Source: Spirochaetales bacterium
GTDB taxonomy: Bacteria; Spirochaetota; Spirochaetia; DSM-27196; SLST01
Direction: 5' to 3'
Assembly (NCBI GenBank): GCA_007127335.1
Contig: SKZO01000010.1
Span: forward strand, 35,370-99,369
Length of the DNA stretch: 64,000 nt
Shown piece by piece: positions 17,555 through 30,227 of this stretch. The number at the start of each line of letters is the position of its first letter. Positions within the stretch are counted from its first letter, which is position 1. Below the pieces are notes generated by a model that had not been told where the DNA came from, made no database searches, and saw only the letters and a list, made by a program, of their open reading frames with translations. The position numbers and the translations under genes are program-made.

Positions 17555-17793
17555 GCTGAATACGCCTTGATACTCGCCTCGATCTCGTCCGCGGTGGAGA
17601 TCCTGCCCGAGTTCTGCACGATGCCGTCGATCGCGTACCCCGGTGTGCGCAGGACGCCCATTTCGACGATGCGGTCCATGTCCGTGACCTTCTCGATCTG
17701 CGCCTCGATCCCAAGGCGCGCGACGGCCTCACGCGCGTTCTTCTCGAGATTGCGGCAGTTCGGACACCCGGGTCCGAGAATCTGAATCGTCAT
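17551..17793 (-). CDS. small thioredoxin-fold protein ('redox-active disulfide protein 2' type)
   Basis: The start is refined to ATG 17793, with GGGAGG 4 nt upstream. MTIQILGPGCPNCRNLE carries the CxxC motif. The size is about 80 aa, and the protein type is classically paired with the permease above and ArsR. Confidence 0.85.
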   Translation of the reverse strand: MTIQILGPGCPNCRNLEKNAREAVARLGIEAQIEKVTDMDRIVEMGVLRTPGYAIDGIVQNSGRISTADEIEASIKAYSA

Positions 17794-17828
17794 GGTTCCT
17801 CCCATTTTGTGGTTATTTGGTTATATGC

Positions 17829-17857
17829 ACAATAACGAGAAGTTGCAAACCGGTCAA
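17829..17857 (-). promoter_or_regulatory. sigma70-type promoter of the thioredoxin/permease operon
   Basis: The minus strand reads TTGACC (17857..17852), a 17-nt spacer, then TATTGT (17834..17829). This lies about 36 nt upstream of ATG 17793. Confidence 0.5.
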
Positions 17858-17868
17858 CCGGCTCATCA

Positions 17869-17904
17869 TCTTGACCCGTGTCTTGACCCGTGTCTTGACC
17901 CGTC
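17869..17904. repeat. three tandem copies of a 12-mer (TCTTGACCCGTG x2, then TCTTGACCCGTC), each containing a -35-like TTGACC
   Basis: The copies were read directly at 17869-17880, 17881-17892 and 17893-17904. They lie in the divergent arsR/thioredoxin intergenic region. Confidence 0.9.
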
Positions 17905-17923
17905 GGGGCGTTATTGGCAATAT

Positions 17924-18274
17924 ATGCAAGGAATGCTCAACGAACAGGAACGACTCAGGGCCCAGGCGCGCGCCTCGATCCTGAAGGCACTCGCCCACCC
18001 GACGCGGGTCTACATCGTCGACCTCATCTCTCGCGAGGGCGCTCACTGCGTATGCGAGCTTACCGACCGGATTGGCGCGGACACTTCGACGGTGTCTCGA
18101 CATCTCTCGCTGCTCAGGAATGCCGGATTACTGTACGATCGCAAGGAGGGAACGACGGTCTACTACGATCTGACCTGCGACTGCATATCCGACTTCATGA
18201 ACGGTCTCGAGTCGGTGCTCCGCGCGCGGCACAAGCGAGAGCAGGCGGCCTTCGCGGCGTCCGTCGGGCAGTGA
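17924..18274 (+). CDS. arsR: ArsR/SmtB-family metalloregulator with CVC metalloid-binding motif
   Basis: It has the wHTH core ILKALAHPTRVYIVDLI...HCVCELT...STVSRHLSLLRNAGLL. The CVC resembles the ELCVCDL As(III) site of ArsR. The start is ATG 17924 or ATG 17933, and the upstream part of track ORF 17792 is rejected. Confidence 0.85.
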   Translation: MQGMLNEQERLRAQARASILKALAHPTRVYIVDLISREGAHCVCELTDRIGADTSTVSRHLSLLRNAGLLYDRKEGTTVYYDLTCDCISDFMNGLESVLRARHKREQAAFAASVGQ

Positions 18275-18284
18275 GCGCGAGCGC

Positions 18285-19130
18285 CTACTCAGTGCGTTCC
18301 GGGCGGTCTTCCGGTCCTGGTACCTGCGCCCGCGACTCAGTACGGTGGAGCGCAGCGGTACCTACTCTCACTCCGATCTTCGGTAGCGCGATCAGGAGCG
18401 GTACGCCGATCAGCGTGGCTGCCAGCGAGAAGACGGCCCGTTCGACCGGCGCGACGAAGGCGAGTCCTCGCCACATCGTCGCCGGCCAGTCGTACAGCAG
18501 GATACCCGCGAAGTTCGCGATTCCTGCGGAGGAGACGAACCCCGCGTAGGCGGCGAAGAAGACGCCCGTTGCCATGCGCGCGGCAGGAACCGCGCCGCTA
18601 TCGGTCCGGGTCGCGAGACGGCGCCAGACCAGTGCCCCCGCGGCCGTTGCCAGGAGTCCCGCCGTGTAGAAGATGAAGGGGAAGATCGCCGCATCAGTCC
18701 CGATCGGCGTGAGGAACCAGAGCCCGTAGCCACCGCCGATGATCGCCGCCGTGACGTACCATCGACCGCGCGTGATCAGTCCTACGGCCGCGGCGTTGAT
18801 AGTGCCAACGAGAAAGGTCGCGGGGCCGAGCCATGCCGTATGTGGCGCGATCAGTTGGGCGATGAACGATCCGACCGCGGCGCAGACAGCGCCGCCTACC
18901 GGGCCAAAGAGAACGCCGGCGAGCGGGACAAAGGCCACGCTGACGGTGAAGGTTCCGGAGATCCCGAGAATGGGGATCGTGGGCAGAAGGTTCCCGGTTG
19001 CGATGATGGCGGCCCAGACAGCGATCACCGCGGGGTGAATACCGGATCCGACGAAGACGGTCTCCTGCTCGTCATCCAGACCGGCCTCTGCATCCAGGCC
19101 GGGTTCGTTCTGCGAAGGGTTCACCCGCAT
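18285..19130 (-). CDS. polytopic membrane protein, candidate ECF-transporter S (substrate-capture) component of unknown specificity
   Basis: It has about 6-7 TM segments rich in Gly and Ala. It overlaps the ECF ATPase stop by 10 nt and is the last gene of the operon. I recognise no specific S-component family. Confidence 0.5.
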   Translation of the reverse strand: MRVNPSQNEPGLDAEAGLDDEQETVFVGSGIHPAVIAVWAAIIATGNLLPTIPILGISGTFTVSVAFVPLAGVLFGPVGGAVCAAVGSFIAQLIAPHTAWLGPATFLVGTINAAAVGLITRGRWYVTAAIIGGGYGLWFLTPIGTDAAIFPFIFYTAGLLATAAGALVWRRLATRTDSGAVPAARMATGVFFAAYAGFVSSAGIANFAGILLYDWPATMWRGLAFVAPVERAVFSLAATLIGVPLLIALPKIGVRVGTAALHRTESRAQVPGPEDRPERTE

Positions 19131-20722
19131 ATCTGCTCCTCGTCATACATGTCGTCTGCGAAGGCACCGGCGAGCTCATAGGGTGCCCCATGCGTCGTGA
19201 GCACACCGGCGGCCTCGAGCACGTCGGTCTGTTCCCGGGTGATCTCGCTGGTCGGCCCATCGGCCACGATGCGCCCTGCGTCCATGACGATCAGCCGCTC
19301 GGCGTACTCGCACAGGAGTCCCAGATCGTGGCCGATCGCGATGACCGTCCTGCCGGCATCCCGCAGGCTGCACGCGATCTCCATGACCCTGCGGCTGCCT
19401 TCGACGTCGTGACCTCGTGTTGGCTCATCGAGCAGGATGACAGCCGAGTCGAGCGCAAGCACCGAAGCGAACGCGACGAGCGATCGGTCGCTGCGTCCGA
19501 GTGCAAGAGGGTGTTCCTGTGCCTTATCGGGCAGCCCCACGATCTCAAGCGATCGTCCGACCCTGTCCTCTACCTCTGCCCGATCGAGTCCCTGGTTGAC
19601 CGGGCCGAATGCGACTTCTTTCCACACCGTGTCCGCGAACAGCTGATGGTCGGGATTCTGCTGGACGTAGCCCACCCGTCGCACCAGCTCGGAGGGGTCG
19701 AGCGTCCGCACCGGTCTGCCGGCAACCCGCACCTCTCCCGCGGCAGGCTCGAGGAGCCCGACGATCGCCTTGAACAGCGTCGTCTTTCCCGAACCGTTGC
19801 GACCCACGATTCCGGCGAACTCACCGGGGGCGAACCCGGCTGAAACATCGTCCACCGCAACCGTCCCGGGATACTCGCAGCGCAGCGCGTCGACATCAAT
19901 TCGGCATCGGTCGACCAGGGGGTCCGCGGCGACGGCGGCGGTCCGTCCGGAAGCCGCACCGCCGGCCCGACGGAAGAAGCGCGACGGATCTGGTCCCGCA
20001 AACACCCGCTCCGGCGTGTCGAATGCCGCGAGCCGGCCGGCCTCGAGCGCGAGGACCCGGTCCGCGTACGCCGATGCGAGCGCCATGTCATGCGTTGCGA
20101 CGATGACCGTCAGCTTGTACCGGAGCTTCAGACGGCACACGAGCTCCATGAGATGCCGCGATCCCTCCGCGTCAAGCTGGCTCGTCGCCTCATCGAACAC
20201 GAGGACGCGCGGCGTCATGGCGAGCAGGGACGCAATCGTGAGGCGCTGCTTCTGACCGCCGGACAGCGTGGCCGGTGCACGGTCTTCGAATCCACGCAGA
20301 CCGACGGCTCGGAGGGCCCGCGCCACCGAGGTCCGGATCGTGTCCGGTTCCATGCCAAGATTCTCTCCACCGAACGCCGCCTCGTCGAGCACCGTGCCGG
20401 CAAACAGTTGGGCGTCAGGATCCTCGAGGACGAGACCCACATGCCGCGCGAGCTCGGCGACCTGGTGCGATCGCGTATCCAGGCCATGGACACGGACCCT
20501 CCCCTTGAGCGCACCTCCCTCGAAATGGGGGACGATGCCGTTCAGACACTTGCAGAGCGTCGATTTCCCTGCGTCGTTCGGTCCAATGACAGCGACGAAC
20601 TCGCCGGGCAGAATCCGCAGGTTGATGTCCTGCAGGGCCCACCGGGGCGAGTCAGGGTAGCGGTACGAGAAACGGTGAAACGTCACTGCTGCAGCGACGT
20701 GGTGTTCGGGAACGGGCAGCAT
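19121..20722 (-). CDS. ECF transporter ATPase, fused double-NBD (EcfA-EcfA')
   Basis: Two ABC domains are present. Walker A motifs are GPNDAGKST and GRNGSGKTT, with signature LSGGQKQR and Walker B motifs VLVFDEATSQLD and ILLDEPTRGHD. Confidence 0.85.
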   Translation of the reverse strand: MLPVPEHHVAAAVTFHRFSYRYPDSPRWALQDINLRILPGEFVAVIGPNDAGKSTLCKCLNGIVPHFEGGALKGRVRVHGLDTRSHQVAELARHVGLVLEDPDAQLFAGTVLDEAAFGGENLGMEPDTIRTSVARALRAVGLRGFEDRAPATLSGGQKQRLTIASLLAMTPRVLVFDEATSQLDAEGSRHLMELVCRLKLRYKLTVIVATHDMALASAYADRVLALEAGRLAAFDTPERVFAGPDPSRFFRRAGGAASGRTAAVAADPLVDRCRIDVDALRCEYPGTVAVDDVSAGFAPGEFAGIVGRNGSGKTTLFKAIVGLLEPAAGEVRVAGRPVRTLDPSELVRRVGYVQQNPDHQLFADTVWKEVAFGPVNQGLDRAEVEDRVGRSLEIVGLPDKAQEHPLALGRSDRSLVAFASVLALDSAVILLDEPTRGHDVEGSRRVMEIACSLRDAGRTVIAIGHDLGLLCEYAERLIVMDAGRIVADGPTSEITREQTDVLEAAGVLTTHGAPYELAGAFADDMYDEEQICG

Positions 20723-20753
20723 TCAGACTCCTTATCCCAGGACGGCAAGCGAA

Positions 20754-21518
20754 TCACAGGACTCGGTCGACAGCAGCGAGAACGCCGAACAGGATCATCG
20801 CTGCCAGGAGAATCAACCCATCGAGCCGGCGGAACGAGAGGGTGTGGATCGACGTGCGCGCCGCACCCGATCCGAAGGCGCGCGACTGCATTGCCACGCT
20901 CATCAGTGTGGCCCGCCGCATCGAGGTCATGACCAGGGGGACCACGAGAGCAGGATATGCCCGAACCTTCTGAAGGAACCGCCCGCGGTCAAACGCCGAT
21001 GATCCCCGTAGCCGTTGCGCTGCGCTGATCGTCGCGAAATCCGCGCGAAGCACCGGTATCTGGTTGAGCGCCGTTGTTACGGTGTAGGCGGCCCTGTACG
21101 GCAACCCGAGGCGGGTGAGGGCGAGTACGATCCGGTCGATGCTCGTCCGTGACGTGAGGATGGGCACCGTGCAGGCGAGCACCAGGACCCTCAGACAGAG
21201 CATGAGCCCGAAGCCGATTCCTTCGAGCGTCACGGGAAGCGTGAGCAGACCGATCCGCGGCAGTTCCACCCGGACCGGCGTGTCGCCCGGGAAAAAGAAC
21301 GCCTGCGCCGTGATGATGAGCACGAAGACGACTCGAAGCGGCTTGATGCCGGCGAGCAGCTGGCCCCATTCGAGTCCCACCGCGCGCCACAGGAGCAATA
21401 CCACGGCAAACGCCGCCCCGATCGTCGCCGGATGTCGCAGCAGAAAACAGAGGGCGGACATCAGGATCACTACGGCGATTCGTACGCGGGGGTCTAGCCT
21501 CTCCATTCTGTACTCCAC
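20754..21518 (-). CDS. ECF transporter transmembrane (T) component, EcfT/CbiQ family
   Basis: It is a multi-TM protein whose C-terminal part carries ISAAQRLRG...MRRATLMSVAMQSRAFG, typical of CbiQ/EcfT coupling helices. Confidence 0.8.
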   Translation of the reverse strand: MEYRMERLDPRVRIAVVILMSALCFLLRHPATIGAAFAVVLLLWRAVGLEWGQLLAGIKPLRVVFVLIITAQAFFFPGDTPVRVELPRIGLLTLPVTLEGIGFGLMLCLRVLVLACTVPILTSRTSIDRIVLALTRLGLPYRAAYTVTTALNQIPVLRADFATISAAQRLRGSSAFDRGRFLQKVRAYPALVVPLVMTSMRRATLMSVAMQSRAFGSGAARTSIHTLSFRRLDGLILLAAMILFGVLAAVDRVL

Positions 21519-21548: not shown

Positions 21549-22565
21549 TCACGTCCTGGGAATCTCCCGCACGATCTCCGGCAGCACCTCGAAAAGGTCG
21601 CCCACGATCGCCACGTCTGCGAGCTGCATCAGCGGCGTATCGGGGTCCTTGTCGATCGCGATAATGTAGTCACACGACTGCATACCGACAAGGTGTTGAA
21701 TCTGTCCGGATATCCCGCACGCGACATAGACCATGGCCTGGACCGTCTGGCCTGTCTGACCAACCTGGTGGTTATACGGGACCCAGCCGGAATCGACCGC
21801 CGCACGACTCGCTCCAACCGCACCGTTGACGCGTTCTGCAAGGCGTTTCAGCAGCTGGAACCCTTCAGGCCCCTTGACGCCGCGGCCGCCGGCGATGATG
21901 AAGCGTGCGTCGGCAAGGTTGATCGCGTTTTCCGTGTCCTGGAAGATCTCAACCACCTTCTTGAGCGTCGACTTCTCGCTCTCGAGCAGTTGCTCTCTGA
22001 TTACACGGCCGGTCCGGCCCGTGTCCGCGGGAAGGGCATTCATGACGCGTGGGCGGACCGTTGCCATCTGCGGACGGTGGTTGGAACAACGTATCGTGGC
22101 CATGATGTTCCCGCCAAAGGCCGGCCGGGTCTGGAGAAGATCGCCGTTCTCGGGGTCGATCGAGAGACCCGTACAATCAGCCGTGAGCCCGCAGTTCGCC
22201 GCAACGGCCACTCGCGGAATGAGCGCGCGTCCTCGGGTTGTCGCGCCGCAGAGGACGATCTCCGGTTTGTGGGTGTCGACGAACCGTACGAGGACCGACG
22301 CCATGTCTTCGTCGACGAACTCGGCGAAACGCGGCTCATCGACAGCCAGGACAACATCGGCCCCGCCATGGAAGAGCGGTTCGATCTGCCCGTCCAATCC
22401 GTGACCCATCACCACACACCAGACTTCGCAGGCCCGGTCATTCGCGAGCGAACGCGCCGCGCCAAGAAGCTCGTACGTTACCTTCTGGATCTGCCCGCCG
22501 AGCACCTCGGCGACCACCCAGACGTTCCTGTACCCGGTCCGAGCCTCGTCAGTATTGGCTATCAT
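21549..22565 (-). CDS. etfA: electron transfer flavoprotein, alpha (large) subunit
   Basis: It has VWVVAEV...KVTYELLGAAR at the N-terminus. The C-terminal FAD-binding segment is IIAGGRGV...LGASRAAVDSGW....QVGQTGQTV.P.VY.ACGISG.IQH. There is no N-terminal ferredoxin domain. Confidence 0.85.
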   Translation of the reverse strand: MIANTDEARTGYRNVWVVAEVLGGQIQKVTYELLGAARSLANDRACEVWCVVMGHGLDGQIEPLFHGGADVVLAVDEPRFAEFVDEDMASVLVRFVDTHKPEIVLCGATTRGRALIPRVAVAANCGLTADCTGLSIDPENGDLLQTRPAFGGNIMATIRCSNHRPQMATVRPRVMNALPADTGRTGRVIREQLLESEKSTLKKVVEIFQDTENAINLADARFIIAGGRGVKGPEGFQLLKRLAERVNGAVGASRAAVDSGWVPYNHQVGQTGQTVQAMVYVACGISGQIQHLVGMQSCDYIIAIDKDPDTPLMQLADVAIVGDLFEVLPEIVREIPRT

Positions 22566-22593: not shown

Positions 22594-23382
22594 CTAGAGA
22601 AGACCGCGCCGGCGCAACTCGCGTACGAGTGTTCCTGCGCTCTCTGAAGGCGAGCCGTTGAGCACAAGCGTCTCCGCTCCGCGCGGCGGCGGCGGGTTGG
22701 TCTTGACGACACGGGTTGGAGAGCCGTTGAGCCCAATCAGCTCCTCGTCGGCGCCGATGTCCTCGGGCGACCAGACCGGTATATCGAGTTTCTGGGCTGC
22801 AAGCCGACCCTTCAACGTAGGAACTCGCGGCTGGTTGATATCCTTGACCACGGTGAGCACAGCGGGAAGCGTGATCTCGCAGAGGTCCCACCCATCCTCG
22901 TGCATCCGTCGTGTAGTGATCACTCCGTTGTTAGACTCAGGAATCTCCATGACATAGGTTGCCTGAGCCCATCCGAGCTGGGCGGCGATTCCGGGCCCGA
23001 CCTGCGCCGTGTCGCCATCGATCGCCTGTTTGCCGCACAACACCAGGTCCACGCCACCGATCTTCTCAATCGCCTTCGCCAGCGCATAGCTCGTGGCCCA
23101 GGTATCAGACCCTCCGAAGGCACGTCCGCTGAGCAGTATTCCGGCGTCTGCCCCCACGGAGATCGCCTCGCGCAGGACGGTCTCGGCCCGCGGCGGTCCC
23201 ATCGTCATCACGATGACTTCGCCGCCGCTCTTCTCCTTTATCTTCACCGCTTCTTCCACCGCATAGGTGTCGAACGGATTCATGACCGCCTTGATTCCCT
23301 CCCGGACGATTCGCTTCGTCTCCGGGTCTATCTTCGCGTCATGGGTGCCGGGCACCTGTTTGACGCAGACTACCATCTTCAT
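22594..23382 (-). CDS. etfB: electron transfer flavoprotein, beta (small) subunit
   Basis: The start is refined to ATG 23382 (MKMVVCVKQVP, the canonical EtfB N-terminus), forming an ATGA overlap with the MetF-like stop. It contains CGKQAIDGDTAQVGP (motif at 22993..23019). Confidence 0.85.
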   Translation of the reverse strand: MKMVVCVKQVPGTHDAKIDPETKRIVREGIKAVMNPFDTYAVEEAVKIKEKSGGEVIVMTMGPPRAETVLREAISVGADAGILLSGRAFGGSDTWATSYALAKAIEKIGGVDLVLCGKQAIDGDTAQVGPGIAAQLGWAQATYVMEIPESNNGVITTRRMHEDGWDLCEITLPAVLTVVKDINQPRVPTLKGRLAAQKLDIPVWSPEDIGADEELIGLNGSPTRVVKTNPPPPRGAETLVLNGSPSESAGTLVRELRRRGLL

Positions 23383-24206
23383 GAGGCCACCTCTTCGGAC
23401 TGAACCTGCTCCCAGAGCCCGGTGATCCGGTCGTACTGTTTCTTGAACCCGAGCAGCGACAGGTAGACACCGCAACGGGGGTAGTTCCGGTGCAGGTTCT
23501 TGAGCGTCTCAACCGGATTGAACGACTCGGGGTCCTCGGCAACCTCGTACCCTACGGCCTCGGACAGAAGCCCGATATTCTTGCTCATCCACGCTTCAAC
23601 GGCTACCGGTATGTCCGGGTACTTCTCGAGAAGCTTGTCCACGACCGGATGGTTGTCGATCACCGGCTGCGTGATGATGAACGATGCGCCGGCGTCGATC
23701 TTTCGTTCCATCTTTGCGAACTCGTGTTCCTCCGGCTCGTAGGGGTTGAAGGCCACTCCAAGCTCAAAGACGCCCGGATACTCGCGCCGAATATAGCGCA
23801 GCAGCTCAACTGACGTCACAGACTCGACGTCCGTCGCGCCCACGTCGGCCGGAGTGAGCTTGGGCAGGCGGTCGGATCCGTCACCCGAGATCACGAGCAA
23901 CTGCTCGATCTTCATCTCCTTGCACGACTCGAGAATCCGGTCGAGGTCATCCTTCGTGTGAAAGGTGTTCAGGTGGATCATCACCAGGCCGGGTTTGGGC
24001 TCGAGCTCGAGCTCTTCGATCATCTCCGTTCCCTGGAACGCGAGATTGCCCATCGCGTTGTCGGTAATACAGCAGCAGTAGCCGCTGTCCATCACGCGGT
24101 TGAACTTGTTCGTGAACCGCTCGAGGTCAGCTTCGAGCTTCTCCGAATCCTGCTTTGGAGGCAGGACTTCCACGTGGTAGATCCTGTTTTCGATGTGGTG
24201 CTGCAT
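23379..24206 (-). CDS. divergent methylenetetrahydrofolate reductase (MetF)-like protein
   Basis: The N-terminus YHVEVLPPK resembles the MetF (F)EFFPPK start, and the layout and length (275 aa) are TIM-barrel-like. It sits between fhs and etfB. The assignment is by pattern and context only. Confidence 0.55.
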   Translation of the reverse strand: MQHHIENRIYHVEVLPPKQDSEKLEADLERFTNKFNRVMDSGYCCCITDNAMGNLAFQGTEMIEELELEPKPGLVMIHLNTFHTKDDLDRILESCKEMKIEQLLVISGDGSDRLPKLTPADVGATDVESVTSVELLRYIRREYPGVFELGVAFNPYEPEEHEFAKMERKIDAGASFIITQPVIDNHPVVDKLLEKYPDIPVAVEAWMSKNIGLLSEAVGYEVAEDPESFNPVETLKNLHRNYPRCGVYLSLLGFKKQYDRITGLWEQVQSEEVAS

Positions 24207-24221: not shown

Positions 24222-25988
24222 TTAGAAGAGTCCGCGGACCTTACCGGTCGCTGTGTCTACGTCGATGTTGCGGAATGCGGGATCAGACGACGTGCCCGGC
24301 ATGAGCTTGACACCGCCGGCAACCGGCACGAGAAAACCCGCACCGCGGTACGTCAGGATGTCGCTGATCGGCAGCGTCCAGCCCTTCGGGCGGCCCTTGA
24401 GCGTCGGGTCATGGCTCAGACTCAAGTGGGTTTTCACCATACAGGTCCCAAGCTCTTTCGCCTCCGGATCCTCAGCGATTGCCGCGAGCTTCTCCTCGGC
24501 CTCCGGCGTGTAACTCACCCCGTCGGCGCCGTATACTTCGCGCGCAAGCAGCGCGATGCGCTCCTTGATGGGCATGTCGAGCGAGTAGAGGTAGTCGAAG
24601 GTTGGCTTCTCCTCGCACGCCTCTACCACGGCCTCAGCCAGCTCGACCGCACCTTCACCGCCCTGCTCCCAGTGCTTGCTCAGAGCGACTCTCGCTCCTG
24701 CGGCCTCTGCCGCACGTCTGATCGCCGCCACCTCATCATCGGAGTCGGTGTAGAAGTGGTTGATACAGACAACCGGCTGTATGCCGCTCTTCTTCACCGT
24801 TTCAATGTGCGCGATGAGATTCTCCGTGCCCTGCTCCACGAGGCCGACATTGGCCTTCGTGTACTCTTCGGCGAGCTCCTTGCCCGGCACGACGCGCGGG
24901 CCGCCTCCGTGCATCTTGAGCGCACGGACCGTACACACGATTACCGCGGCGTTCGGGACCAGGCCGGAGAAGCGGCATTTGAGATTCCAGAACTTCTCGA
25001 AGCCTATGTCGGCACCGAAACCGCTCTCGGTCACGTGGTAGTCGGAGAGCTTGAGAGCGAGGCGATCGGCTACAATCGACGATTGGCCGATAGCGATGTT
25101 CGCGAAAGGACCGGCATGCACGAAAACCGGTTGACCTTCAATGGTCTGCATCAGGTTCGGGTTGATCGCCTTGTGCATCAGCGCAGTCATCGCGCCGCCC
25201 ACCTCGAGGTCGTCGGCTGATACCGGCTTCCCTGACTTGCTGTAGCCAACGACCATTTTCCCGAGACGAGCACGCAAATCCGCGAGGTCCCTGGCGACGG
25301 CGAGGATCGCCATGACTTCCGATGAGACGGTGATCTGAAACCCGCTCTTCATCATGAAGCCGTCCATCTTTCCGCCGATGCCGATGATGATCTCCCGCAG
25401 CGCCTGCGCCGAAAAGTCGATCGTCCAGCCCATCGCCGGGTTGCGAGGATCTATGTTGAGTCGCTCGAGCCCGCGTCGTGCGAGGAACTTGTCGCCATAG
25501 TTGAACTCGTGCTGGATCCGCGAGGTGAGGGCGACCATCGCGAGGTTGTGCGCGTTGTTGATCGCGTCGATGTCTCCGGTCAACCCGAGGCTGAACTCGC
25601 TCAGGGGTATGCACTGCGCGAGCCCTCCGCCGGCTGCACTGCCCTTGATGTTGAATGTTGGACCGCCTGACGGTTGCCGAATTCCTCCGGTTACCCGTTT
25701 GCCGATCTTGCCGAGCCCTTCGACGAGACCCATCGTCGTCGTGGTCTTGCCCTCACCCAGGGGCGTCGGCGTTATCGCGGTGACATCAATGTACTTGCCA
25801 TCGGGCTGGTTCTTCAGCCGATCGAGCACGCTGATGTAGTCGACCTTGCCGATATAATGGCCGTATGGATGAAGCTCGTCCTCAGTGATTCCGAGCTCGT
25901 CGGCTATGACGCCAATCCTCTTCATGTCAGCAGCGGCTGCGTCAGCGATCTCCCAGTCCTTCATCTTCTTCGGGTCCAAGGTGGCCAT
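24222..25988 (-). CDS. fhs: formate--tetrahydrofolate ligase
   Basis: The start is refined to ATG 25988, with AAGGAG 5 nt upstream. Canonical FTHFS segments are present: [41 protein letters not shown] and EGAMTALM-like. Confidence 0.95.
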
Positions 25989-25998
25989 ACGTACTCCT

Positions 25999-26898
25999 TT
26001 AGCTCCGCCTGCACGAGGCAAGCGTGTTTTTCATCAGCATTGCGATCGTCATCGGGCCGACGCCGCCGGGTACCGGCGTGATCGAACCGGCGATCTCTTT
26101 CGCCGCGTCGAAGTCCACGTCGCCGCGAAGGATCGCGATCTTCTTCCCCGTCTTCCTGCTGACCTTCTCGCCGACGCGGTTCACGCCCACATCGATGACA
26201 CAGGCGCCGGGCTTGATCCACTCCGGCTTCACGAGTCCGGGCACCCCGGCGGCGACGATCAGAATATCCGCGCGTCGGCAGTGCGACGCGAGGTCTCTCG
26301 TTCTCGTATGCACGACCGTCACCGTCGCGTTCGCCCCGGGGCCCTTCTGAAGCAGCATATTCGCGATCGGCTTCCCGACGATGTTCGACCGTCCAACGAC
26401 GACGACCTCAGCGCCCTCGATCTCAACGCCCGACCGTACGATGAGCTCCTGGATTCCTGCCGGCGTGCACGGCGGGAAGAGCACCTCGTCGCCTCCGATC
26501 ATCAGCCTTCCGACGTTGACGGGATGGAACCCGTCGACGTCCTTGTCCGGATCGATCGCATAGATGACCTTCTTCTCGTCGATGTGGTCCGGCAGCGGGA
26601 GCTGCACGAGAATCCCATGGATCGATTCATCCCTGTTGTACCGTTCGACGAGCGCGAGGAGGTCCGCCTCGCTGATCCCGGGGTCCACGTTCTCCTGCAC
26701 CTCGTTGAACCCGAGATCGAGCGCGGTGCGTACCTTGAGCGTCACGTAGGAGACCGACGCGGGGTTCTCGCCCACGAGTATCGTCACGAGTCCGGGAACC
26801 GTTCCGGTCTTGTCCCGCATCGTCGCCACATCGCTCCTGATCTCGTCGAGAATCGTCTTCGACACCGCACGGCCGTCGATGATCTGCGCGGACATCAC
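25999..26898 (-). CDS. folD: bifunctional methylene-THF dehydrogenase / methenyl-THF cyclohydrolase
   Basis: Canonical FolD segments are present: [45 protein letters not shown] and [12 protein letters not shown]. The start GTG 26898 or ATG 26895 overlaps the upstream stop. Confidence 0.95.
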
Positions 26899-27911
26899 GC
26901 CCCCCTGATCGCGGAGATGAACTGCATTCCGAACTCGTCCTTGCCGAGCAGGACGTCTCGGGCAAGCTGGTTCACCTCCTTCGAGAAATCGATCCCCGCG
27001 AGCACCTCATCGTTGATCTGCATTGGATCGACGATGCCTCCATCACAGCCCGCTTCCTGACACAGCCTGGCAAAGACACGGTTGAGCACGCTTCGCTTGG
27101 GAAAGCCATGGGAGACATTGGAGAGCCCTGGCGCGAAGTGCACTTCGTCTCCGTACTTCTCACGGAGCGTTCTGATGGTCTCGATGACACACGGGCCGTT
27201 CTGGACGTCGACAGAGACCGGGAAGACGAGTGGGTCGAGGAAGGTGTCCGAAAGCGAGATGCCGGCCTCCTGCAGCTTCGGCACGAGCTCGTAGATGTTC
27301 TCGAGGCGCTCTTCCCTGGTCTGGGGCATGCTCGTCGCGCCCATCGCGCTTGCGATGACGCATGCCTTCGCCTTTGCCGCAATGGGGACGAAGGCGACGC
27401 GCTCGAGCGACACGGAGTTCACCAGCGGCTTCCCCTTTGACGGGTCGCACGCGGCGAGTCCGGTCTCGAGGATCTCCGGATCCGAGGAATCAATGCTCAG
27501 CGGGATGGATGTAGCCGATTGAACGACCTGTGCCGCCCACTCGATCGCCCGTTTCTTCTCGTCCTGATCGACGCTGAACTCGTCCACGTTGATGTCGAGA
27601 AACCAGGCGCCGGAGGCCTCCTGTTCGCGCGCCATCGCCTGCACGTAGCGCCGGCCGGCTTCCTTCTCGTCGTTCGATCCGTAGAGACCCTGCTGAACCG
27701 CCACGGCGACGTGACGCACCTTGCCGTCCTGGAAATCCTGTCCCTCAGCGACTTCGGCCGGGATGGGCAGATACTGCTTCTTGCCGTCTTCCCTGAACAC
27801 GAGGGCGGATCTCCCGTCATCGAGCTGCTCGACGTACTTGCCCTTCGTCAGACGTACGCGTGTGCAATGGATGTTTTCTCCGACAATGATAAACGAACCC
27901 TTCGACGCCAT
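26895..27911 (-). CDS. pterin-binding methyltransferase, methyl-THF:corrinoid methyltransferase (AcsE/MeTr) family
   Basis: It is collinear with MeTr landmarks: VGENIH, FLDINV, SIDSS...ETGL, VNSVS, LDPLVFP, GLSNVSHG...R..LNR.F and GCDGGIVDP. GGAGG lies 5 nt upstream of ATG 27911. Confidence 0.8.
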   Translation of the reverse strand: MASKGSFIIVGENIHCTRVRLTKGKYVEQLDDGRSALVFREDGKKQYLPIPAEVAEGQDFQDGKVRHVAVAVQQGLYGSNDEKEAGRRYVQAMAREQEASGAWFLDINVDEFSVDQDEKKRAIEWAAQVVQSATSIPLSIDSSDPEILETGLAACDPSKGKPLVNSVSLERVAFVPIAAKAKACVIASAMGATSMPQTREERLENIYELVPKLQEAGISLSDTFLDPLVFPVSVDVQNGPCVIETIRTLREKYGDEVHFAPGLSNVSHGFPKRSVLNRVFARLCQEAGCDGGIVDPMQINDEVLAGIDFSKEVNQLARDVLLGKDEFGMQFISAIRGA

Positions 27912-28011: not shown

Positions 28012-30147
28012 TCAGGTTCTCGTTCCCCAGGCCGCGATCGGACGAAAACCAAGCCGCAGCGCCGGGGAGTTCTCGCCCACACGAAAATCCCCGGCCTCCG
28101 CATCACGGAAGAGTGGATCGGCCACGATCGACCGTCCGCCCTTGCCGATCTTCGCCAGCTCCGCGAGCGCAGCGTGCGCGGCATCCGGCTCGTCGACATC
28201 CCACAGGAGGTTGTCGTCCATGGAAACCTCCCGAAGGAAGCCGATCGGGTCGTCAAGCACCCAGAAGGGCTCCTTCTGCGGCCGCGGCGAGCGGACGAGG
28301 ATGTTGCGTCTCATTCCGGTCCCGTAACACGGGCCACGATGGCGTGCGCAGAGGTAGCCGTACTGTCGCGGACCGTAGCAGTCGACGATGATGTTGTTCT
28401 CGATCTGGTTGATGTTCTTGGTCAGGATCCCGGCGCCGCAGATACGATGAACGACGTTCTCCGCGACCAGATTGTGGAACTGCTCGTCGTCAAGCCTGAT
28501 CCCGGAAACCGTGCCCTCTCCCGAGATGTCGTGGACGTAGTTTCGTGCGATGACGTTCCCCACGCCCGCGCCGGAGACGTAAATGCCGTTGCCGTCTCCG
28601 AGCAACTCCATCGCGTCGTGCACTTCGTTGTGTTCGATCGTGTTGTACCGCGCGTGCCGGAAACCGAGCAGGACCGGTTGCTCGAGCGGCGCGTCGCTCA
28701 GCTCCTCGCGGCGGACGGTACGCGCCCCTTCGCGCACTCGGTGACCGCCGGGGTCCAGCACCGACCGCCTTGGCCCGCTGACGACGATCGCGCAGTACGG
28801 CGTGTGGTGGATGAGGTTGTCACAGATTACGTTGTGGCCGCTCTGACAGACGAAGATGCCGGCCGCGTGCCACCAGAGCCGTCCGACGTGATGGATGTGG
28901 TTCGACGCAACACGATTGTGGTGATTCTCGTCGCGCGTTCCGGGTCCGTACCCGATCAGCGAGACGCCGACTCCGCCTATGCCGGAGATCTCATTCGCGA
29001 CGATCTCGTTGTCCACGGCGTGCAGGTCGAGCCGAATGCCCGAGCCCCCCGAGTCGACGAGCCTGCAGTTCGCGACTCGAACTCCCCGAGACCCCCGCAA
29101 TCTCACGAGGGCACTCGCGGAGTCCTCCTCCTCCCAGTCGTGTTGCACCGACCGACGCCCCGCACCAAACTGATAGCGATCGCCGTGCATGAGTGTGAGA
29201 CCGTCGATCACGATATCACGCACGGGCTCGCCCCGCTCGAGATCCCCTTCGAACCGGAGCATCTCGGTCAGCACCGGCGCAACCACGTCGGTCGGCGGCG
29301 TCCGTCCGTCGTTGCTGCGGGGCCAGAGGTAGACGCTTCCGCTCTCCGTGTCGCTGACCCAGCGTCCGGGAGCATCGAGGTAGTCACAGACATTCTCAAT
29401 GCGGTAGAACCGTTTGATGTGTGCAGGCCCGTACGCCGTGGTTATCGGGTATGTCGCGGGGAGCGTCGTTCTCGCGACGCGCCTGTCCTCATCCACGGAC
29501 TCCAGCCCCAGGTAGTTCACCGTCCAGGGGTTGCGCGGCGTGAGAAACAGCTCGACATCCGGCATGGTGCGCCACCGTCGGATCTCGCCCTCGCGGTATC
29601 TCAGCTCCCGGTAGACCGGATGAGCATCCAGGTACGTCGTCGGTTCCTCACCCGGCGGAATATCGGGGGCCACCGGCTCGGTATCCTCCCTCGCGCTCTG
29701 GAATCGAGGCGAATGGGCACGCTCGAGCAGCCCCTCACCGTCGAACAGCGCCTTGATCCCGACAGGTCGGCCCTGGCGTCGGGGCAGTGAGGCCACCCAC
29801 ACGTGCCCGAGTGCGTTCGCGGGCATACCTTCCGGCATGTCGGCTGCCGTAACGAGCCTCCATCCGGACAGCGGAACCCCTCCCGAGAGAACCGGCGTTT
29901 CGCCGGGGTATGCCGCATATCGTATTCTGCGCCCCGGTGCCGGGGAATCGTCCGGGCCCCAGACGATCGCGGTCTCCACGCGATAGACGCCTCCGCGAAG
30001 GTATACGGTGAGGCTTCCGTCGTAGCCGCCGGCCCGCAGCCGGCGTGCGGCTTGCCGGGCAGCGTCGAGCCCCGGTAGCGGGTCGGCCGCGTCCCCCGTA
30101 CCGTTCGCTCGTCCGGCGGGCGAGACGTAGAGTGTCAGCGACTTCAT
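28012..30147 (-). CDS. right-handed parallel beta-helix repeat protein (pectate-lyase fold; glycan-active enzyme candidate)
   Basis: The start is refined to ATG 30147 (MKSLTLYVSP), with GAAGGGG upstream. It contains repeated beta-helix turns such as NHIHHVGRLWWHAAGIFV, GHNVICDNLIHH, GNVIARNYVHDISGEG and NLVAENVVHRICGAGIL. No obvious signal peptide is present. Confidence 0.75.
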   Translation of the reverse strand: MKSLTLYVSPAGRANGTGDAADPLPGLDAARQAARRLRAGGYDGSLTVYLRGGVYRVETAIVWGPDDSPAPGRRIRYAAYPGETPVLSGGVPLSGWRLVTAADMPEGMPANALGHVWVASLPRRQGRPVGIKALFDGEGLLERAHSPRFQSAREDTEPVAPDIPPGEEPTTYLDAHPVYRELRYREGEIRRWRTMPDVELFLTPRNPWTVNYLGLESVDEDRRVARTTLPATYPITTAYGPAHIKRFYRIENVCDYLDAPGRWVSDTESGSVYLWPRSNDGRTPPTDVVAPVLTEMLRFEGDLERGEPVRDIVIDGLTLMHGDRYQFGAGRRSVQHDWEEEDSASALVRLRGSRGVRVANCRLVDSGGSGIRLDLHAVDNEIVANEISGIGGVGVSLIGYGPGTRDENHHNRVASNHIHHVGRLWWHAAGIFVCQSGHNVICDNLIHHTPYCAIVVSGPRRSVLDPGGHRVREGARTVRREELSDAPLEQPVLLGFRHARYNTIEHNEVHDAMELLGDGNGIYVSGAGVGNVIARNYVHDISGEGTVSGIRLDDEQFHNLVAENVVHRICGAGILTKNINQIENNIIVDCYGPRQYGYLCARHRGPCYGTGMRRNILVRSPRPQKEPFWVLDDPIGFLREVSMDDNLLWDVDEPDAAHAALAELAKIGKGGRSIVADPLFRDAEAGDFRVGENSPALRLGFRPIAAWGTRT

Positions 30148-30227
30148 AGACGCCCCTTCGTCCGGGATACTACCCCCCGTGGGGTAATCCTTCAACCATA
30201 ACGTCCGCCGCGCCGTCCGCCGCGCCC

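What the first reader, a model, noticed from the sequence alone, without database searches (positions are those of the whole stretch)
22594..24206. MetF-like gene translationally coupled (ATGA) to an EtfB with a DGDTAQVGP motif: candidate ETF-dependent, possibly bifurcating, methylene-THF reductase
The MetF-like stop and the EtfB start share ATGA (23382..23379). This is the tightest form of coupling and usually marks subunits of one complex.

The EtfB contains CGKQAIDGDTAQVGP (22993..23019). As I recall, this Gly-Asp-Thr-Ala-Gln-Val-Gly-Pro version is characteristic of the FixAB/bifurcating-type ETFs, which bind a second FAD in EtfB. Non-bifurcating ETFs such as human ETFB read ...AIDDDCNQTGQ... 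there.

The electron partner of clostridial-type MetF is a long-standing open question, and an MTHFR-ETF complex would be a distinct solution. The MetF-like protein is itself divergent. It has an FFPPK-like start, but YCCCITDNAMG sits where canonical MetF has its FAD-contacting segment.
Basis: partly seen in the sequence, partly recalled or inferred. Interest (0 to 1): 0.65.

Follow-up and report, generated by a model that had tools for sequence, protein, structure and literature searches.

The report
Folate reductase coupled to electron-splitting flavoprotein
A divergent methylene-tetrahydrofolate reductase gene sits directly before the two genes of a bifurcating-type electron-transfer flavoprotein in this spirochaete and in almost every related locus from several phyla (in one lineage it is fused to one of them), which points to an undescribed enzyme complex for the energetically awkward methyl/methylene-folate step of anaerobic one-carbon metabolism.

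Summary
A 275-aa MTHFR-like gene (24206..23379, minus strand) overlaps by ATGA the start of a 262-aa EtfB (23382..22594). A 338-aa EtfA follows. All three lie in a nine-gene operon: pterin-binding methyltransferase, FolD, Fhs, MetF-like, EtfB, EtfA, ECF transporter.

The ETF matches all five solved bifurcating ETFs about twice as well as canonical ones. It keeps the diagnostic Gly123 (IDGDTAQVGP).

The MetF-like protein models confidently as an MTHFR TIM barrel. It keeps the catalytic Glu/Asp/Gln and several flavin-contact residues, but belongs to a small, isolated family.

The main new result is comparative:
- 83 of 84 related loci with room have EtfB immediately after the MetF-like gene.
- Every EtfB relative at 60% identity or more has the MetF-like gene upstream. 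None of 68 at 57% or less does.
- One treponeme lineage encodes an in-frame MetF-like–EtfB fusion, seen as five distinct sequences.

I found no description of such a complex in the searchable literature. EtfAB plus MTHFR has only been hypothesised.

Best reading: a new ETF-dependent MTHFR coupling methylene/methyl-THF to NAD(H) and ferredoxin. The reaction is probably reversible. Neighbouring demethylase genes favour methyl oxidation to formate in many hosts. Biochemistry is untested.

The parts
26895..27911 (-). Pterin-binding methyltransferase, 338 aa (methyl-THF:corrinoid methyltransferase type, AcsE/MtgA-like). First gene of the operon.
   Evidence: Pfam Pterin_bind 73.9 bits. NCBIfam PRK07535 189 bits, below its cut-off of 259. 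A homologue lies next to the module in 59 of 80 loci.
25999..26895 (-). FolD, methylene-THF dehydrogenase / methenyl-THF cyclohydrolase (298 aa).
   Evidence: Pfam THF_DHG_CYH and THF_DHG_CYH_C. NCBIfam PRK14168 543 bits, above its cut-off of 501. Public gene call.
24222..25988 (-). Fhs, formate-tetrahydrofolate ligase (588 aa).
   Evidence: Pfam FTHFS 764 bits. NCBIfam PRK13507 1076 bits, above its cut-off of 938.
23379..24206 (-). MetF-like protein (MetFL), 275 aa. A divergent MTHFR TIM barrel and the proposed folate-reducing/oxidising subunit.
   Evidence: Pfam MTHFR 52 bits over residues 6-184. TIGR00676 scores only 41 bits against a cut-off of 294. AF2 pLDDT 89.7. Foldseek top hits are all MTHFR-fold proteins. 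E13, H78, D109, R168/K169 and Q180 are conserved.
23379..23382 (-). ATGA overlap of the MetFL stop codon and the EtfB start codon.
   Evidence: Read directly. The same 4-nt overlap occurs in about 9 of 88 related loci; the median spacing is 24 nt.
22594..23382 (-). EtfB, 262 aa, group-2 (bifurcating-type) small ETF subunit.
   Evidence: Pfam ETF 154 bits. 252 bits to CarD (6fah_B) against 108 bits to human ETFB.
22993..23019 (-). DGDTAQVGP motif (EtfB residues 122-130), including Gly123.
   Evidence: Sequence and alignments. Gly123 is reported as invariant in bifurcating ETFs in PMC12630350.
21549..22565 (-). EtfA, 338 aa, large ETF subunit with the FAD domain. It has no N-terminal ferredoxin domain.
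   Evidence: Pfam ETF and ETF_alpha. 318 bits to CarE (6fah_A), with the alignment starting at CarE residue 67, against about 150 bits to human ETFA.
20754..21506 (-). ECF transporter T component (CbiQ family), in the same tightly packed operon.
   Evidence: Pfam CbiQ 85 bits. Gene call. Present only in the closest spirochaete loci L001, L002, L004 and L005.
19121..20722 (-). ECF transporter duplicated ATPase (533 aa).
   Evidence: Pfam ABC_tran, two stretches.
18285..19130 (-). ECF transporter S component of unassigned specificity (281 aa).
   Evidence: Weak Pfam hits to ECF-ribofla_trS and ECF_trnsprt. No NCBIfam hit.

Best explanation
MetFL, EtfB and EtfA most likely form one enzyme: an ETF-dependent methylenetetrahydrofolate reductase.

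Proposed mechanism (inferred by analogy with Bcd-, CarC- and Ldh-EtfAB complexes, not shown here):
- NADH reduces the bifurcating FAD in EtfB.
- One electron goes uphill to ferredoxin or flavodoxin.
- The other goes through the EtfA FAD to a flavin in the MetFL TIM barrel.
- That flavin reduces 5,10-methylene-THF to 5-methyl-THF.
- Net reaction: 2 NADH + Fd(ox) + CH2-THF <-> 2 NAD+ + Fd(red) + CH3-THF.

The CH2-THF/CH3-THF couple (about -200 mV) is almost the same as pyruvate/lactate (-190 mV). The reaction should therefore be near equilibrium and reversible, as in Ldh-EtfAB.

In the window the complex is embedded in one operon with a methyl-THF:corrinoid methyltransferase, FolD and Fhs. Together these connect a methyl group on a corrinoid or on THF with formate.

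Direction. I think the oxidative, confurcating direction is somewhat more likely in many hosts, at about 55:45. In that direction a methyl donor goes to CH3-THF, then CH2-THF, then formyl-THF, then formate plus ATP. The reductive direction remains plausible, especially in termite-gut treponemes.

Shown versus inferred. Shown here: gene order, the family memberships, the fold, conserved residues, synteny and the fusion. Inferred: complex formation, flavin content, bifurcation, the ferredoxin partner and the direction.
For: Operon structure. The window operon is tightly packed and co-directional, with the ATGA overlap.

Synteny.
- EtfB directly follows MetFL in 83 of 84 loci with at least 900 nt of room.
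- EtfB plus EtfA follow in 67 of 70 loci with at least 2 kb. Two of the three exceptions (L058, L093) do have EtfA, just below my identity filter.
- The loci come from Spirochaetota, Bacillota, Atribacterota, Lentisphaerales and others.

Reciprocity. All 10 metagenomic EtfB relatives at 60% identity or more that have upstream sequence carry MetFL there. None of 68 at 57% or less does. Those more distant ETFs pair with an acyl-CoA dehydrogenase instead.

Natural fusion. An in-frame MetFL-EtfB fusion of 532 aa occurs in L011. It is present as five distinct sequences (93-95% identical) from independent sources.

Co-evolution.
- Pairwise-identity matrices correlate: r = 0.76 (MetFL-EtfB), 0.79 (MetFL-EtfA) and 0.84 (EtfB-EtfA), against 0.58 for MetFL-Fhs.
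- Mean identities are equal at about 0.70.

ETF type. The ETF is of the bifurcating type. Gly123 is present (PMC12630350).

MetFL as an MTHFR. It has the MTHFR fold and the catalytic residues. It is closer to flavin-containing MTHFRs (TM 0.63-0.72) than to the flavin-free mycobacterial enzyme (TM 0.56-0.61).

No alternative partner. No MetV, Hdr, RnfC or other dehydrogenase is conserved nearby.

Context favouring methyl oxidation.
- Pterin-binding methyltransferase in 59 of 80 loci, formate/nitrite-family channel in 18, MtgC-like corrinoid protein in 13, RACo in 12, MtaA/CmuA-type URO-D methyltransferase in 11.
- An Atribacteria operon reads MttB-family-CoP-MetFL-EtfB-EtfA-methyltransferase-Fhs-RACo.
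- A separate bona fide YitJ (HcyMT/MTHFR, 549 bits against a cut-off of 453) lies 4 kb away in L074.
- Only 1 SAM riboswitch was found in 29 loci, and it precedes metNIQ.

Thermodynamics. Redox values are taken from PMC5861303.
Against: - Nothing biochemical was tested. Complex formation, flavin in MetFL, NADH and ferredoxin use and bifurcation are all inferences.
- MetFL is very divergent. Its C-terminal third does not match the Pfam model, so an altered substrate or cofactor cannot be excluded.
- Group-2 sequence features do not prove bifurcation.
- The direction is ambiguous. The pterin methyltransferase, corrinoid protein, Hcy-methyltransferase and RACo found in some spirochaete loci (L003, L006, L008) could equally be a split methionine synthase, which would imply the reductive direction.
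- URO-D proteins can also methylate thiols.
- In a locus carrying the protein named after Clostridium thermosuccinogenes, the trio stands alone next to glycoside hydrolase genes.
- The window itself has no corrinoid protein, MT-I gene or CODH/ACS within 64 kb.
- Divergent MetFL relatives (38-45% identity) are not followed by EtfB.
Confidence: 0.68

Rival explanations
1. Housekeeping biosynthetic enzyme. MetFL-EtfAB only supplies methyl-THF for methionine synthesis. The neighbouring pterin methyltransferase, corrinoid protein, Hcy-methyltransferase or URO-D protein and RACo act as a split cobalamin-dependent methionine synthase. The ETF is simply the electron donor.
For: - Hcy S-methyltransferase genes lie next to the module in 6 loci, and CoP plus RACo in 12-13 loci.
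- URO-D-fold enzymes can methylate thiols or homocysteine from methyl-cobalamin (core-MetE, PMC7005905, listed).
- In L032 a SAM riboswitch and metNIQ lie just upstream.
- In the C. thermosuccinogenes-type locus the trio stands alone with no methylotrophy genes.
Against: - At least one genome has a separate, bona fide YitJ HcyMT/MTHFR 4 kb from the module (L074, 549 bits against a cut-off of 453). Canonical MTHFR-like matches also occur in L055 and L063.
- 28 of 29 loci scanned have no SAM riboswitch and none has a Met T-box.
- The frequent linkage to Fhs and a formate channel, and the MttB-family/MtgC-like operon in L022, are typical of catabolic methyl metabolism.
Confidence: 0.18
2. Reductive, energy-conserving MTHFR of a Wood-Ljungdahl-type methyl branch. 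Formate is reduced to methyl-THF, NADH-dependent ferredoxin reduction is gained at this step, and the methyl group is passed to CODH/ACS encoded elsewhere.
For: - The operon order methyltransferase (AcsE-like)-FolD-Fhs-MetFL is that of a methyl branch.
- Termite-gut Treponema MAGs carry methyltransferase-MetFL-EtfB-EtfA-Fhs-FNT-FolD (L046, L058).
- A comparative study reported metF and metV as 'missing' in the acetogen Treponema primitia (PMC5039349).
- EtfAB-coupled bifurcating MTHFR has been proposed for acetogens (PMC8515935).
Against: - No CODH/ACS or CFeSP genes were found in the 64-kb window or near the termite Treponema locus.
- None forms a conserved neighbour cluster.
- No T. primitia protein appeared among the 120 closest homologues of the termite MetFL.
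- Corrinoid proteins near the module are of the MtgC/MtbC type, not CFeSP.
- Many hosts are fermenters not known as acetogens (own knowledge).
Confidence: 0.22
3. Non-bifurcating electron shuttle. The ETF carries electrons one at a time between MetFL and some other acceptor or donor (for example a membrane oxidoreductase), without NADH/ferredoxin coupling.
For: - Some ETFs encoded next to dehydrogenases in anaerobes are canonical (F. nucleatum Ldh-ETF-Bcd, PMC12630350).
- Bifurcation cannot be read from sequence with certainty.
Against: - Both subunits score about twice as high to all five solved bifurcating ETFs as to canonical ones.
- Gly123 is present; canonical ETFs have a bulkier residue at this position.
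- No EtfCX, FixCX or quinone reductase gene is conserved near the trio.
Confidence: 0.08
4. MetFL is not an MTHFR in function. It is a TIM-barrel flavoprotein of the same fold acting on another pterin-bound or unrelated substrate.
For: - Pfam covers only residues 6-184.
- Equivalog models are missed by a wide margin (41 bits against 294).
- The family is isolated: only 280 representatives at E<1e-3 among 1.84 billion.
Against: - The catalytic Glu, Asp and Gln and the flavin-contact His and Arg/Lys are conserved.
- The gene is almost always flanked by THF-dependent genes, namely Fhs, FolD and the pterin-binding methyltransferase.
Confidence: 0.04

Closest known systems
Lactate dehydrogenase-EtfAB (LctBCD) of Acetobacterium woodii (PDB 7qh2)
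   Same: - A bifurcating-type EtfAB is encoded next to, and complexed with, a flavin dehydrogenase whose substrate couple (-190 mV) is almost the same as CH2-THF/CH3-THF (-200 mV).
- It works physiologically as a confurcating enzyme (substrate + Fd(red) + 2 NAD+).
- Its ETF subunits are homologous to those in the window (197 and 242 bits).
   Different: - The partner is a VAO-type FAD lactate dehydrogenase, not an MTHFR TIM barrel.
- LctC carries an N-terminal ferredoxin domain that the window EtfA lacks.
Caffeyl-CoA reductase CarCDE and butyryl-CoA dehydrogenase-EtfAB (PDB 6fah, 5ol2, 4kpu)
   Same: - These are the closest solved relatives of the window ETF subunits (CarD 252 bits, CarE 318 bits).
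- They share the IDGDTAQVG motif.
- The nearest non-MetFL-linked ETFs in metagenomes also sit next to an acyl-CoA dehydrogenase.
   Different: - The partner is an acyl-CoA dehydrogenase-fold enzyme with a much more positive acceptor (about -10 to -30 mV), so those reactions are essentially irreversible.
- Here the partner gene is replaced by an MTHFR-like gene.
MetFV-type methylene-THF reductases of acetogens (C. ljungdahlii MetFV; A. woodii RnfC2-MetFV; M. thermoacetica MetFV-HdrABC-MvhD; NuoEFG-linked 'X type')
   Same: - They catalyse the same presumed reaction and use the anaerobe-type MTHFR barrel, which does not use NADH directly.
- An accessory electron-transfer module supplies the redox coupling.
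- Bifurcation has been proposed for the Hdr-linked form (PMC8515935, PMC5861303).
   Different: - There is no MetV here.
- The accessory module is EtfAB, an arrangement not among the published groups.
- MetFL forms its own isolated sequence family.
Single-subunit NADH-dependent MetF (E. coli, Thermus) and YitJ-type MTHFR domain
   Same: - They share the fold (TM 0.63-0.69).
- The equivalents of Glu28, His88, Asp120, Arg171/Lys172 and Gln183 are kept.
- The YitJ motifs ELLPP, IPDGP, TGD and TQPV resemble those of MetFL.
   Different: - Sequence identity is only about 15-20%.
- TIGR00676 is missed (41 bits against 294).
- The C-terminal third is divergent.
- Those enzymes need no partner.
Flavin-free mycobacterial MTHFR (MSMEG_6649, PDB 7wmw/7wmz)
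   Same: MTHFR-type TIM barrel.
   Different: - The structural match is weaker (TM 0.56-0.61, 14-15% identity).
- There is no sequence hit at E<=1.
- MetFL keeps flavin-contact residues, and an ETF partner implies one-electron chemistry that needs a flavin.

Membership tests
MTHFR superfamily (Pfam PF02219) | Profile match above the curated gathering score | tested here: met
   52 bits against a cut-off of 24, but only residues 6-184 align.
MTHFR superfamily (Pfam PF02219) | (beta/alpha)8 TIM-barrel fold of MTHFR | tested here: met
   AF2 model with pLDDT 89.7 and eight strand/helix repeats. The top 24 Foldseek PDB hits are all MTHFR-fold proteins, with TM up to 0.72.
MTHFR superfamily (Pfam PF02219) | Catalytic and folate-site residues equivalent to E. 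coli Glu28, Asp120 and Gln183 | tested here: met
   E13, D109 and Q180 are invariant even among 31-48% identical relatives. hhalign pairs ISGDG with LRGDL and ITQP with ITQFF. E13 was placed from the Pfam register and by inspection.
MTHFR superfamily (Pfam PF02219) | Bound flavin (FAD or FMN) and CH2-THF reductase activity | not testable with these tools
   Only indirect: T48, H78 and R168/K169 correspond to the E. coli flavin contacts T59, H88 and R171/K172.
Canonical NAD(P)H-dependent MetF (NCBIfam TIGR00676 equivalog) | Score at or above the curated equivalog cut-off | tested here: not met
   40.9 bits against 293.7. MetFL is therefore not filed as an orthologue of MetF.
MetFV-type MTHFR | An adjacent metV gene (MTHFR_C / Fe-S-zinc subunit) | tested here: not met
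   No such Pfam family was found within +/-10 kb in the source contig. There is no conserved extra ORF class near MetFL in 80 loci.
Bifurcating (group 2) electron-transfer flavoprotein | Both subunits are closer to experimentally bifurcating ETFs than to canonical ETFs | tested here: met
   EtfB scores 197-252 bits against 96-108 bits. EtfA scores 242-318 bits against 110-153 bits.
Bifurcating (group 2) electron-transfer flavoprotein | Small residue (Gly123, A. fermentans numbering) that leaves room for the isoalloxazine of the second FAD in EtfB | tested here: met
   The window EtfB has Gly123 in IDGDTAQVGP. The criterion is taken from PMC12630350.
Bifurcating (group 2) electron-transfer flavoprotein | A second FAD instead of AMP, and NADH-dependent ferredoxin reduction coupled to a high-potential acceptor | not testable with these tools
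   Requires a purified protein.
ETF-dehydrogenase complexes (Bcd/CarC/Ldh-EtfAB type) | A dedicated partner oxidoreductase is encoded with etfBA and physically bound to it | tested here: inconclusive
   The co-encoding is very strong (83 of 84; reciprocal 10 of 10 against 0 of 68), and a natural fusion exists. Binding itself was not measured.
Wood-Ljungdahl gene cluster | CODH/ACS and the corrinoid iron-sulfur protein are encoded with the methyl-branch genes | tested here: not met
   None was found in the 64-kb window (Pfam of the large ORFs; tblastn) or in the termite Treponema locus. Whole genomes were not available.

The most novel reading that the evidence does not exclude
MetFL-EtfAB is a new class of flavin-based electron-bifurcating/confurcating enzyme and a new type of methylene-THF reductase. 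In non-acetogenic fermenters (spirochaetes, clostridia, Atribacterota, Lentisphaerota) it would run backwards, using reduced ferredoxin to pull methyl-THF oxidation to NADH. Methyl groups from quaternary amines, methoxylated compounds or methanol could then be fermented to formate with ATP gain at Fhs. That would be an unrecognised methyl-to-formate catabolic route, and it appears to spread between phyla as a three-gene cassette.
Probability: 0.35. Interest if true: 0.85.

Novelty: new variant of a known kind. Interest (0 to 1): 0.74.

Why it matters
The methylene-THF/methyl-THF step (-200 mV) is the bioenergetic puzzle of anaerobic one-carbon metabolism. Reduction with NADH wastes energy, and oxidation with NAD+ is uphill.

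Known solutions use MetV plus RnfC2 or Hdr/Mvh modules. For several acetogens the coupling is still debated, and an EtfAB partner had only been speculated and then dismissed because no etfAB lay next to metFV (PMC8515935).

Here a dedicated metF-like/etfB/etfA cassette is conserved across phyla, and it is fused in one lineage. This gives a concrete, clonable candidate for an ETF-coupled MTHFR.

If confirmed, it would have three consequences:
- It would add a new substrate class to ETF-based bifurcation.
- It would add a new MTHFR type.
- It would change the reading of 'partial Wood-Ljungdahl' gene sets (Fhs, FolD, MetF without CODH/ACS) that are routinely reported in Atribacterota, spirochaete and clostridial MAGs.

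Tried and rejected
- Fe-S cluster in MetFL. Four cysteines (C44, C46, C95, C245) are invariant in the close family but are replaced in 31-48% identical relatives. Rejected.
- Second MetFL-EtfB fusion in L057. My script flagged it, but translation shows stop codons between the genes. Rejected. Only L011 is a fusion.
- Link to Treponema primitia, whose metF and metV were reported missing. No T. primitia protein was among the top 120 homologues of a termite-treponeme MetFL. Left open, not claimed.
- SAM, T-box and B12 riboswitch control of the module. One SAM riboswitch was found in 29 loci, and it belongs to metNIQ.
- Promoter and terminator scan of the operon. Uninformative.
- Exact-sequence look-ups of two other window proteins to annotate the rest of the window. 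They failed because of start-codon choice and were replaced by Pfam scans.
- Extending the ETF linkage to divergent MetFL relatives. P0124 is followed by a GFO/IDH/MocA-like oxidoreductase and P0130 by DUF2284, not by EtfB. P0122 lies 5 kb from an ETF/GlpA-like cluster.
- Multimer modelling. Not attempted: the structure tool takes single chains, reports no interface metrics, and refuses sequences that are not from the window.
- Literature. Six full-text searches, including the literal terms 'MetF-EtfAB' and the like, found no description of such a complex.
Full report
**1. What is in the window**

On the minus strand, nine co-directional genes lie between 27911 and 18285. They overlap or are separated by at most about 45 nt. 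In order they are:
- a 338-aa pterin-binding methyltransferase (27911..26895)
- FolD (26895..25999)
- formate-THF ligase Fhs (25988..24222)
- a 275-aa MTHFR-like protein, here called MetFL (24206..23379)
- EtfB (23382..22594)
- EtfA (22565..21549)
- an ECF transporter: T component (21506..20754), duplicated ATPase (20722..19121) and S component (19130..18285)

The MetFL stop and the EtfB start share ATGA at 23382..23379, with a GAGGTG ribosome-binding-like sequence 5 nt upstream. The motif DGDTAQVGP is EtfB residues 122-130 (23019..22993).

The window is 96% identical in MetFL to a Spirochaetales MAG from sediment (L001). Identical MetFL proteins occur on seven contigs, and the three places shown have the same gene order. 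The rest of the 64 kb holds peptide ABC transporters, signalling proteins, an H+-pyrophosphatase and peptidases. It holds no CODH/ACS, corrinoid protein, hydrogenase, Rnf or second MTHFR.

**2. The ETF is of the bifurcating type**

Scores against solved structures:

| Subunit | Five solved bifurcating ETFs | Human, Paracoccus, Methylophilus ETFs |
|---|---|---|
| EtfB | 197-252 bits | 96-108 bits |
| EtfA | 242-318 bits | 110-153 bits |

The five bifurcating ETFs are A. woodii CarDE, T. maritima EtfAB, C. difficile and A. fermentans Etf, and A. woodii LctBC.

- EtfB has Gly123 in IDGDTAQVGP. A recent paper describes this glycine as invariant in bifurcating ETFs because it leaves room for the flavin of the second FAD, whereas canonical ETFs have a bulkier residue (PMC12630350).
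- EtfA lacks the N-terminal ferredoxin domain of CarE and LctC. The alignment starts at CarE residue 67.
- The motif itself is generic for this ETF group. The nearest ETFs not linked to MetFL have it too.

**3. MetFL is an MTHFR-fold protein of an isolated family**

Sequence matches:
- Pfam MTHFR matches residues 6-184 only (52 bits).
- The NCBIfam equivalog for MetF is missed by a wide margin (41 bits against 294).
- A profile of the family finds solved MTHFRs only weakly. The best is yeast Met12 at E = 5e-9, and the mycobacterial flavin-free enzyme is not found at all.

Structure:
- AlphaFold2 gives a confident eight-fold beta/alpha barrel (pLDDT 89.7).
- Its best Foldseek matches in the PDB are all MTHFR-fold proteins (TM 0.63-0.72).
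- The flavin-free MSMEG_6649 is further away (TM 0.56-0.61).

Conserved residues:
- The invariant residues E13, D109 and Q180 correspond to E. coli Glu28, Asp120 and Gln183.
- T48, H78 and R168/K169 correspond to the flavin contacts T59, H88 and R171/K172. I recalled the E. coli sequence from memory.
- The Cys-rich 'YCCCITDNAMG' is the beta2 flavin-contact segment. Its cysteines are replaced in 31-48% identical relatives ('VSIPDNPMG'), so they are not cluster ligands.
- The motif resembles the 'INIPDGPRA' of a YitJ-type MTHFR domain found in a related locus.

Family size. A search of 1.84 billion representatives gave only 280 matches at E<1e-3, many of them fragments. There is a large score gap between the family (at least 160 bits) and ordinary MTHFRs (about 50 bits).

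**4. The decisive evidence is comparative**

Synteny. A scan of one genome per species returned 157 relatives, and the 80 best loci were analysed.
- EtfB follows MetFL directly in 83 of 84 loci with at least 900 nt of downstream sequence. This count includes 11 metagenome loci.
- EtfB plus EtfA follow in 67 of 70 loci with at least 2 kb. Two of the three exceptions merely fall under my identity filter. Only L053 lacks the ETF.
- Hosts include Spirochaetota, many Bacillota/Clostridia, Atribacterota, Lentisphaerales, Erysipelotrichaceae and MAGs labelled Akkermansia.
- Spacing is 9-30 nt in most loci. The ATGA-type overlap occurs in about nine.

Reverse test. I searched metagenome contigs with the window EtfB.
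- All ten relatives at 60% identity or more that have upstream sequence carry MetFL there.
- None of the 68 at 57% or less does.
- That second group has an EtfA with a ferredoxin domain and sits beside an acyl-CoA dehydrogenase and fatty-acid synthesis genes.

The MetFL-linked ETFs are therefore a discrete clade in which an MTHFR-like gene occupies the partner position.

Fusion. In the Treponemataceae locus L011 the two genes are fused in frame, with no stop, the junction ...TTWGSGRRSLKIIVCIKQ. The 532-aa product exists as five different sequences (93-95% identical) from NCBI, ENA, JGI and Logan assemblies, so it is not an assembly error.

Co-evolution.
- The three proteins evolve in step: correlation of pairwise identities is 0.76-0.84, against 0.58 for MetFL and Fhs.
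- They are more conserved across phyla than the adjacent Fhs: mean pairwise identity about 0.70 against 0.60.
- This suggests that the trio travels as a unit.

No alternative partner. No MetV, Hdr, RnfC, FixCX or other dehydrogenase is a conserved neighbour.

**5. Mechanism proposed**

By analogy with Bcd-, CarC- and Ldh-EtfAB, NADH would reduce the EtfB flavin. One electron would go to ferredoxin or flavodoxin. The other would go through the EtfA flavin to a flavin in MetFL and on to the folate.

The redox values reviewed by Buckel and Thauer are NAD -320 mV, methylene-THF -200 mV, pyruvate -190 mV and ferredoxin about -450 mV (PMC5861303). They put this reaction near equilibrium, like the lactate enzyme that works in the confurcating direction. 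All of this paragraph is inference.

**6. Direction and physiology**

Neighbours of the trio:

| Neighbour | Loci out of 80 |
|---|---|
| Methyl-THF:corrinoid methyltransferase | 59 |
| Fhs | about half |
| Formate/nitrite-family channel | 18 |
| MtgC/MtbC-like corrinoid protein | 13 |
| Corrinoid reductive activase RACo | 12 |
| PocR-AraC regulator | 10 |
| MtaA/CmuA-type URO-D methyltransferase | 11 |

Points favouring methyl oxidation to formate with ATP gain at Fhs:
- In an Atribacteria single-cell genome the order is MttB-family methyltransferase-corrinoid protein-MetFL-EtfB-EtfA-methyltransferase-Fhs-RACo. The MttB-family protein scores 512 bits to the trimethylamine methyltransferase model and overlaps an Rfam 'PYLIS mttB' match. 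This is the layout of a quaternary-amine or methylamine demethylation system feeding methyl-THF.
- A separate, bona fide YitJ homocysteine-methyltransferase/MTHFR lies 4 kb from the operon in L074. Canonical MTHFR matches also occur in L055 and L063.
- Only one SAM riboswitch, and no methionine T-box, was found in 29 loci (about 410 kb). That riboswitch precedes metNIQ.

Points against that direction:
- Hcy-methyltransferase, corrinoid protein and RACo in some spirochaete loci look like a split methionine synthase.
- The trio stands alone in a C. thermosuccinogenes-type locus.
- Termite-gut treponeme MAGs carry a methyl-branch-like cluster without nearby CODH/ACS.
- The window itself has no methyl-donor-specific genes.

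I therefore commit to the enzyme (confidence about 0.68) and only weakly to the oxidative direction.

**7. Comparison with what is known**

Published MTHFR types are:
- single-subunit MetF
- the flavin-free mycobacterial enzyme
- MetFV
- RnfC2-MetFV
- MetFV-HdrABC-MvhD
- a proposed NuoEFG-linked type

EtfAB was discussed only as a hypothetical partner in C. ljungdahlii. It was judged unlikely there because each etfAB set already has its own neighbouring dehydrogenase (PMC8515935). Surveys of bifurcating enzymes list Bcd, Car, Ldh and Fix as ETF-based classes and Met only as the Hdr-linked complex (PMC6085437, PMC5861303). Six full-text searches, including literal names for such a complex, found no description. 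Subscription-only literature could not be searched.

I therefore rate this a new variant of known kinds: a new partner for bifurcating ETF and a new accessory module for MTHFR.

**8. Limits**

- There is no biochemistry, no interface model and no whole genomes.
- The locus sets were retrieved with family-specific peptide patterns, so they describe the tight clade (at least about 60% identity).
- More distant MetFL relatives are not followed by EtfB.

Noticed in passing
L011:7463-9058 (+); proteins P0352-P0356: A natural in-frame fusion of the MetF-like protein and EtfB (532 aa, junction TTWGSGRRSL[KR]I[IV]VCIKQ) occurs in a Treponemataceae lineage. It is seen as five distinct sequences from independent assemblies.
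   Followed up: yes
L022:5464-15261 (Atribacteria bacterium SCGC AAA255-G05): The operon reads MttB-family methyltransferase-MtgC-like corrinoid protein-MetFL-EtfB-EtfA-pterin methyltransferase-Fhs-RACo, preceded by putative transporter genes that were not checked. Rfam reports a 'PYLIS mttB' match at 6424-6523 inside an uninterrupted ORF, so this is probably a non-pyrrolysine MttB homologue (quaternary-amine type).
   Followed up: partly
L074:9894-12416 (-); also L055 and L063: A bona fide YitJ-type bifunctional homocysteine S-methyltransferase/MTHFR, plus a separate Hcy-methyltransferase, lies about 4 kb from the MetFL-EtfBA operon. These genomes therefore have two MTHFR-type genes side by side.
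   Followed up: partly
L032:4959-5069 (+): A SAM-I riboswitch lies in front of metN and metQ-like transporter genes that end about 290 nt upstream of MetFL. It is the only methionine-type regulatory RNA found in 29 loci.
   Followed up: partly
Loci L001-L094: MetFL, EtfB and EtfA stay 65-80% identical between phyla, while the adjacent Fhs drops to about 45% and the methyltransferase to about 35%. The trio looks like a horizontally mobile three-gene cassette inserted next to lineage-specific folate genes.
   Followed up: partly
L096-L163: The nearest ETFs without MetFL (EtfB at 57% identity or less) have an EtfA with an N-terminal 2x[4Fe-4S] ferredoxin domain. They sit between an acyl-CoA dehydrogenase and fatty-acid synthesis genes (plsX, fabH, fabD, fabG, fabF) in many metagenome contigs.
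   Followed up: no
L166:1-6813 (protein P0122); L165; P0130 locus: Divergent MetFL relatives (38-45% identity, 'SIPDNPMG' type) have other neighbours. One ends a cluster of EtfB, a short EtfA, a GlpA-like protein, a pyridine-nucleotide oxidoreductase, DUF1667 and glycerol kinase. One is followed by a GFO/IDH/MocA-like oxidoreductase, and one by DUF2284.
   Followed up: partly
window 18285..21506 (-): An ECF transporter (T component, duplicated ATPase, and an S component with no family assignment) is co-transcribed right after EtfA. This occurs only in the closest spirochaete loci (L001, L002, L004, L005). The substrate is unknown; folate, corrinoid and flavin are all conceivable.
   Followed up: partly
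window 28012..30195 (-): A 711-727-aa right-handed beta-helix protein (weak Pel9A-like, NosD and Beta_helix Pfam hits, no NCBIfam hit) lies 100 nt upstream of the operon on the same strand.
   Followed up: no
window 39118..40434 (+): An Mrp/NUBPL-type iron-sulfur-cluster P-loop ATPase carries a C-terminal 'gamma-butyrobetaine hydroxylase-like N-terminal' domain.
   Followed up: no
window 16340..18274: A divergent pair: an ArsR-type regulator on one strand, and on the other a small thioredoxin-like protein plus an ArsP-type permease. It lies immediately downstream of the operon.
   Followed up: no
window 47932..50109 (-): A membrane H+-translocating pyrophosphatase (828 bits to the Pfam H_PPase model).
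   Followed up: no
L046, L058, L076, L080 (termite-gut Treponema MAGs): These loci carry methyltransferase(-)-MetFL-EtfB-EtfA-Fhs-FNT-FolD. A comparative study reported metF and metV as missing in the acetogen Treponema primitia (PMC5039349). No T. primitia homologue appeared among the top 120 hits, so the link is unproven.
   Followed up: partly
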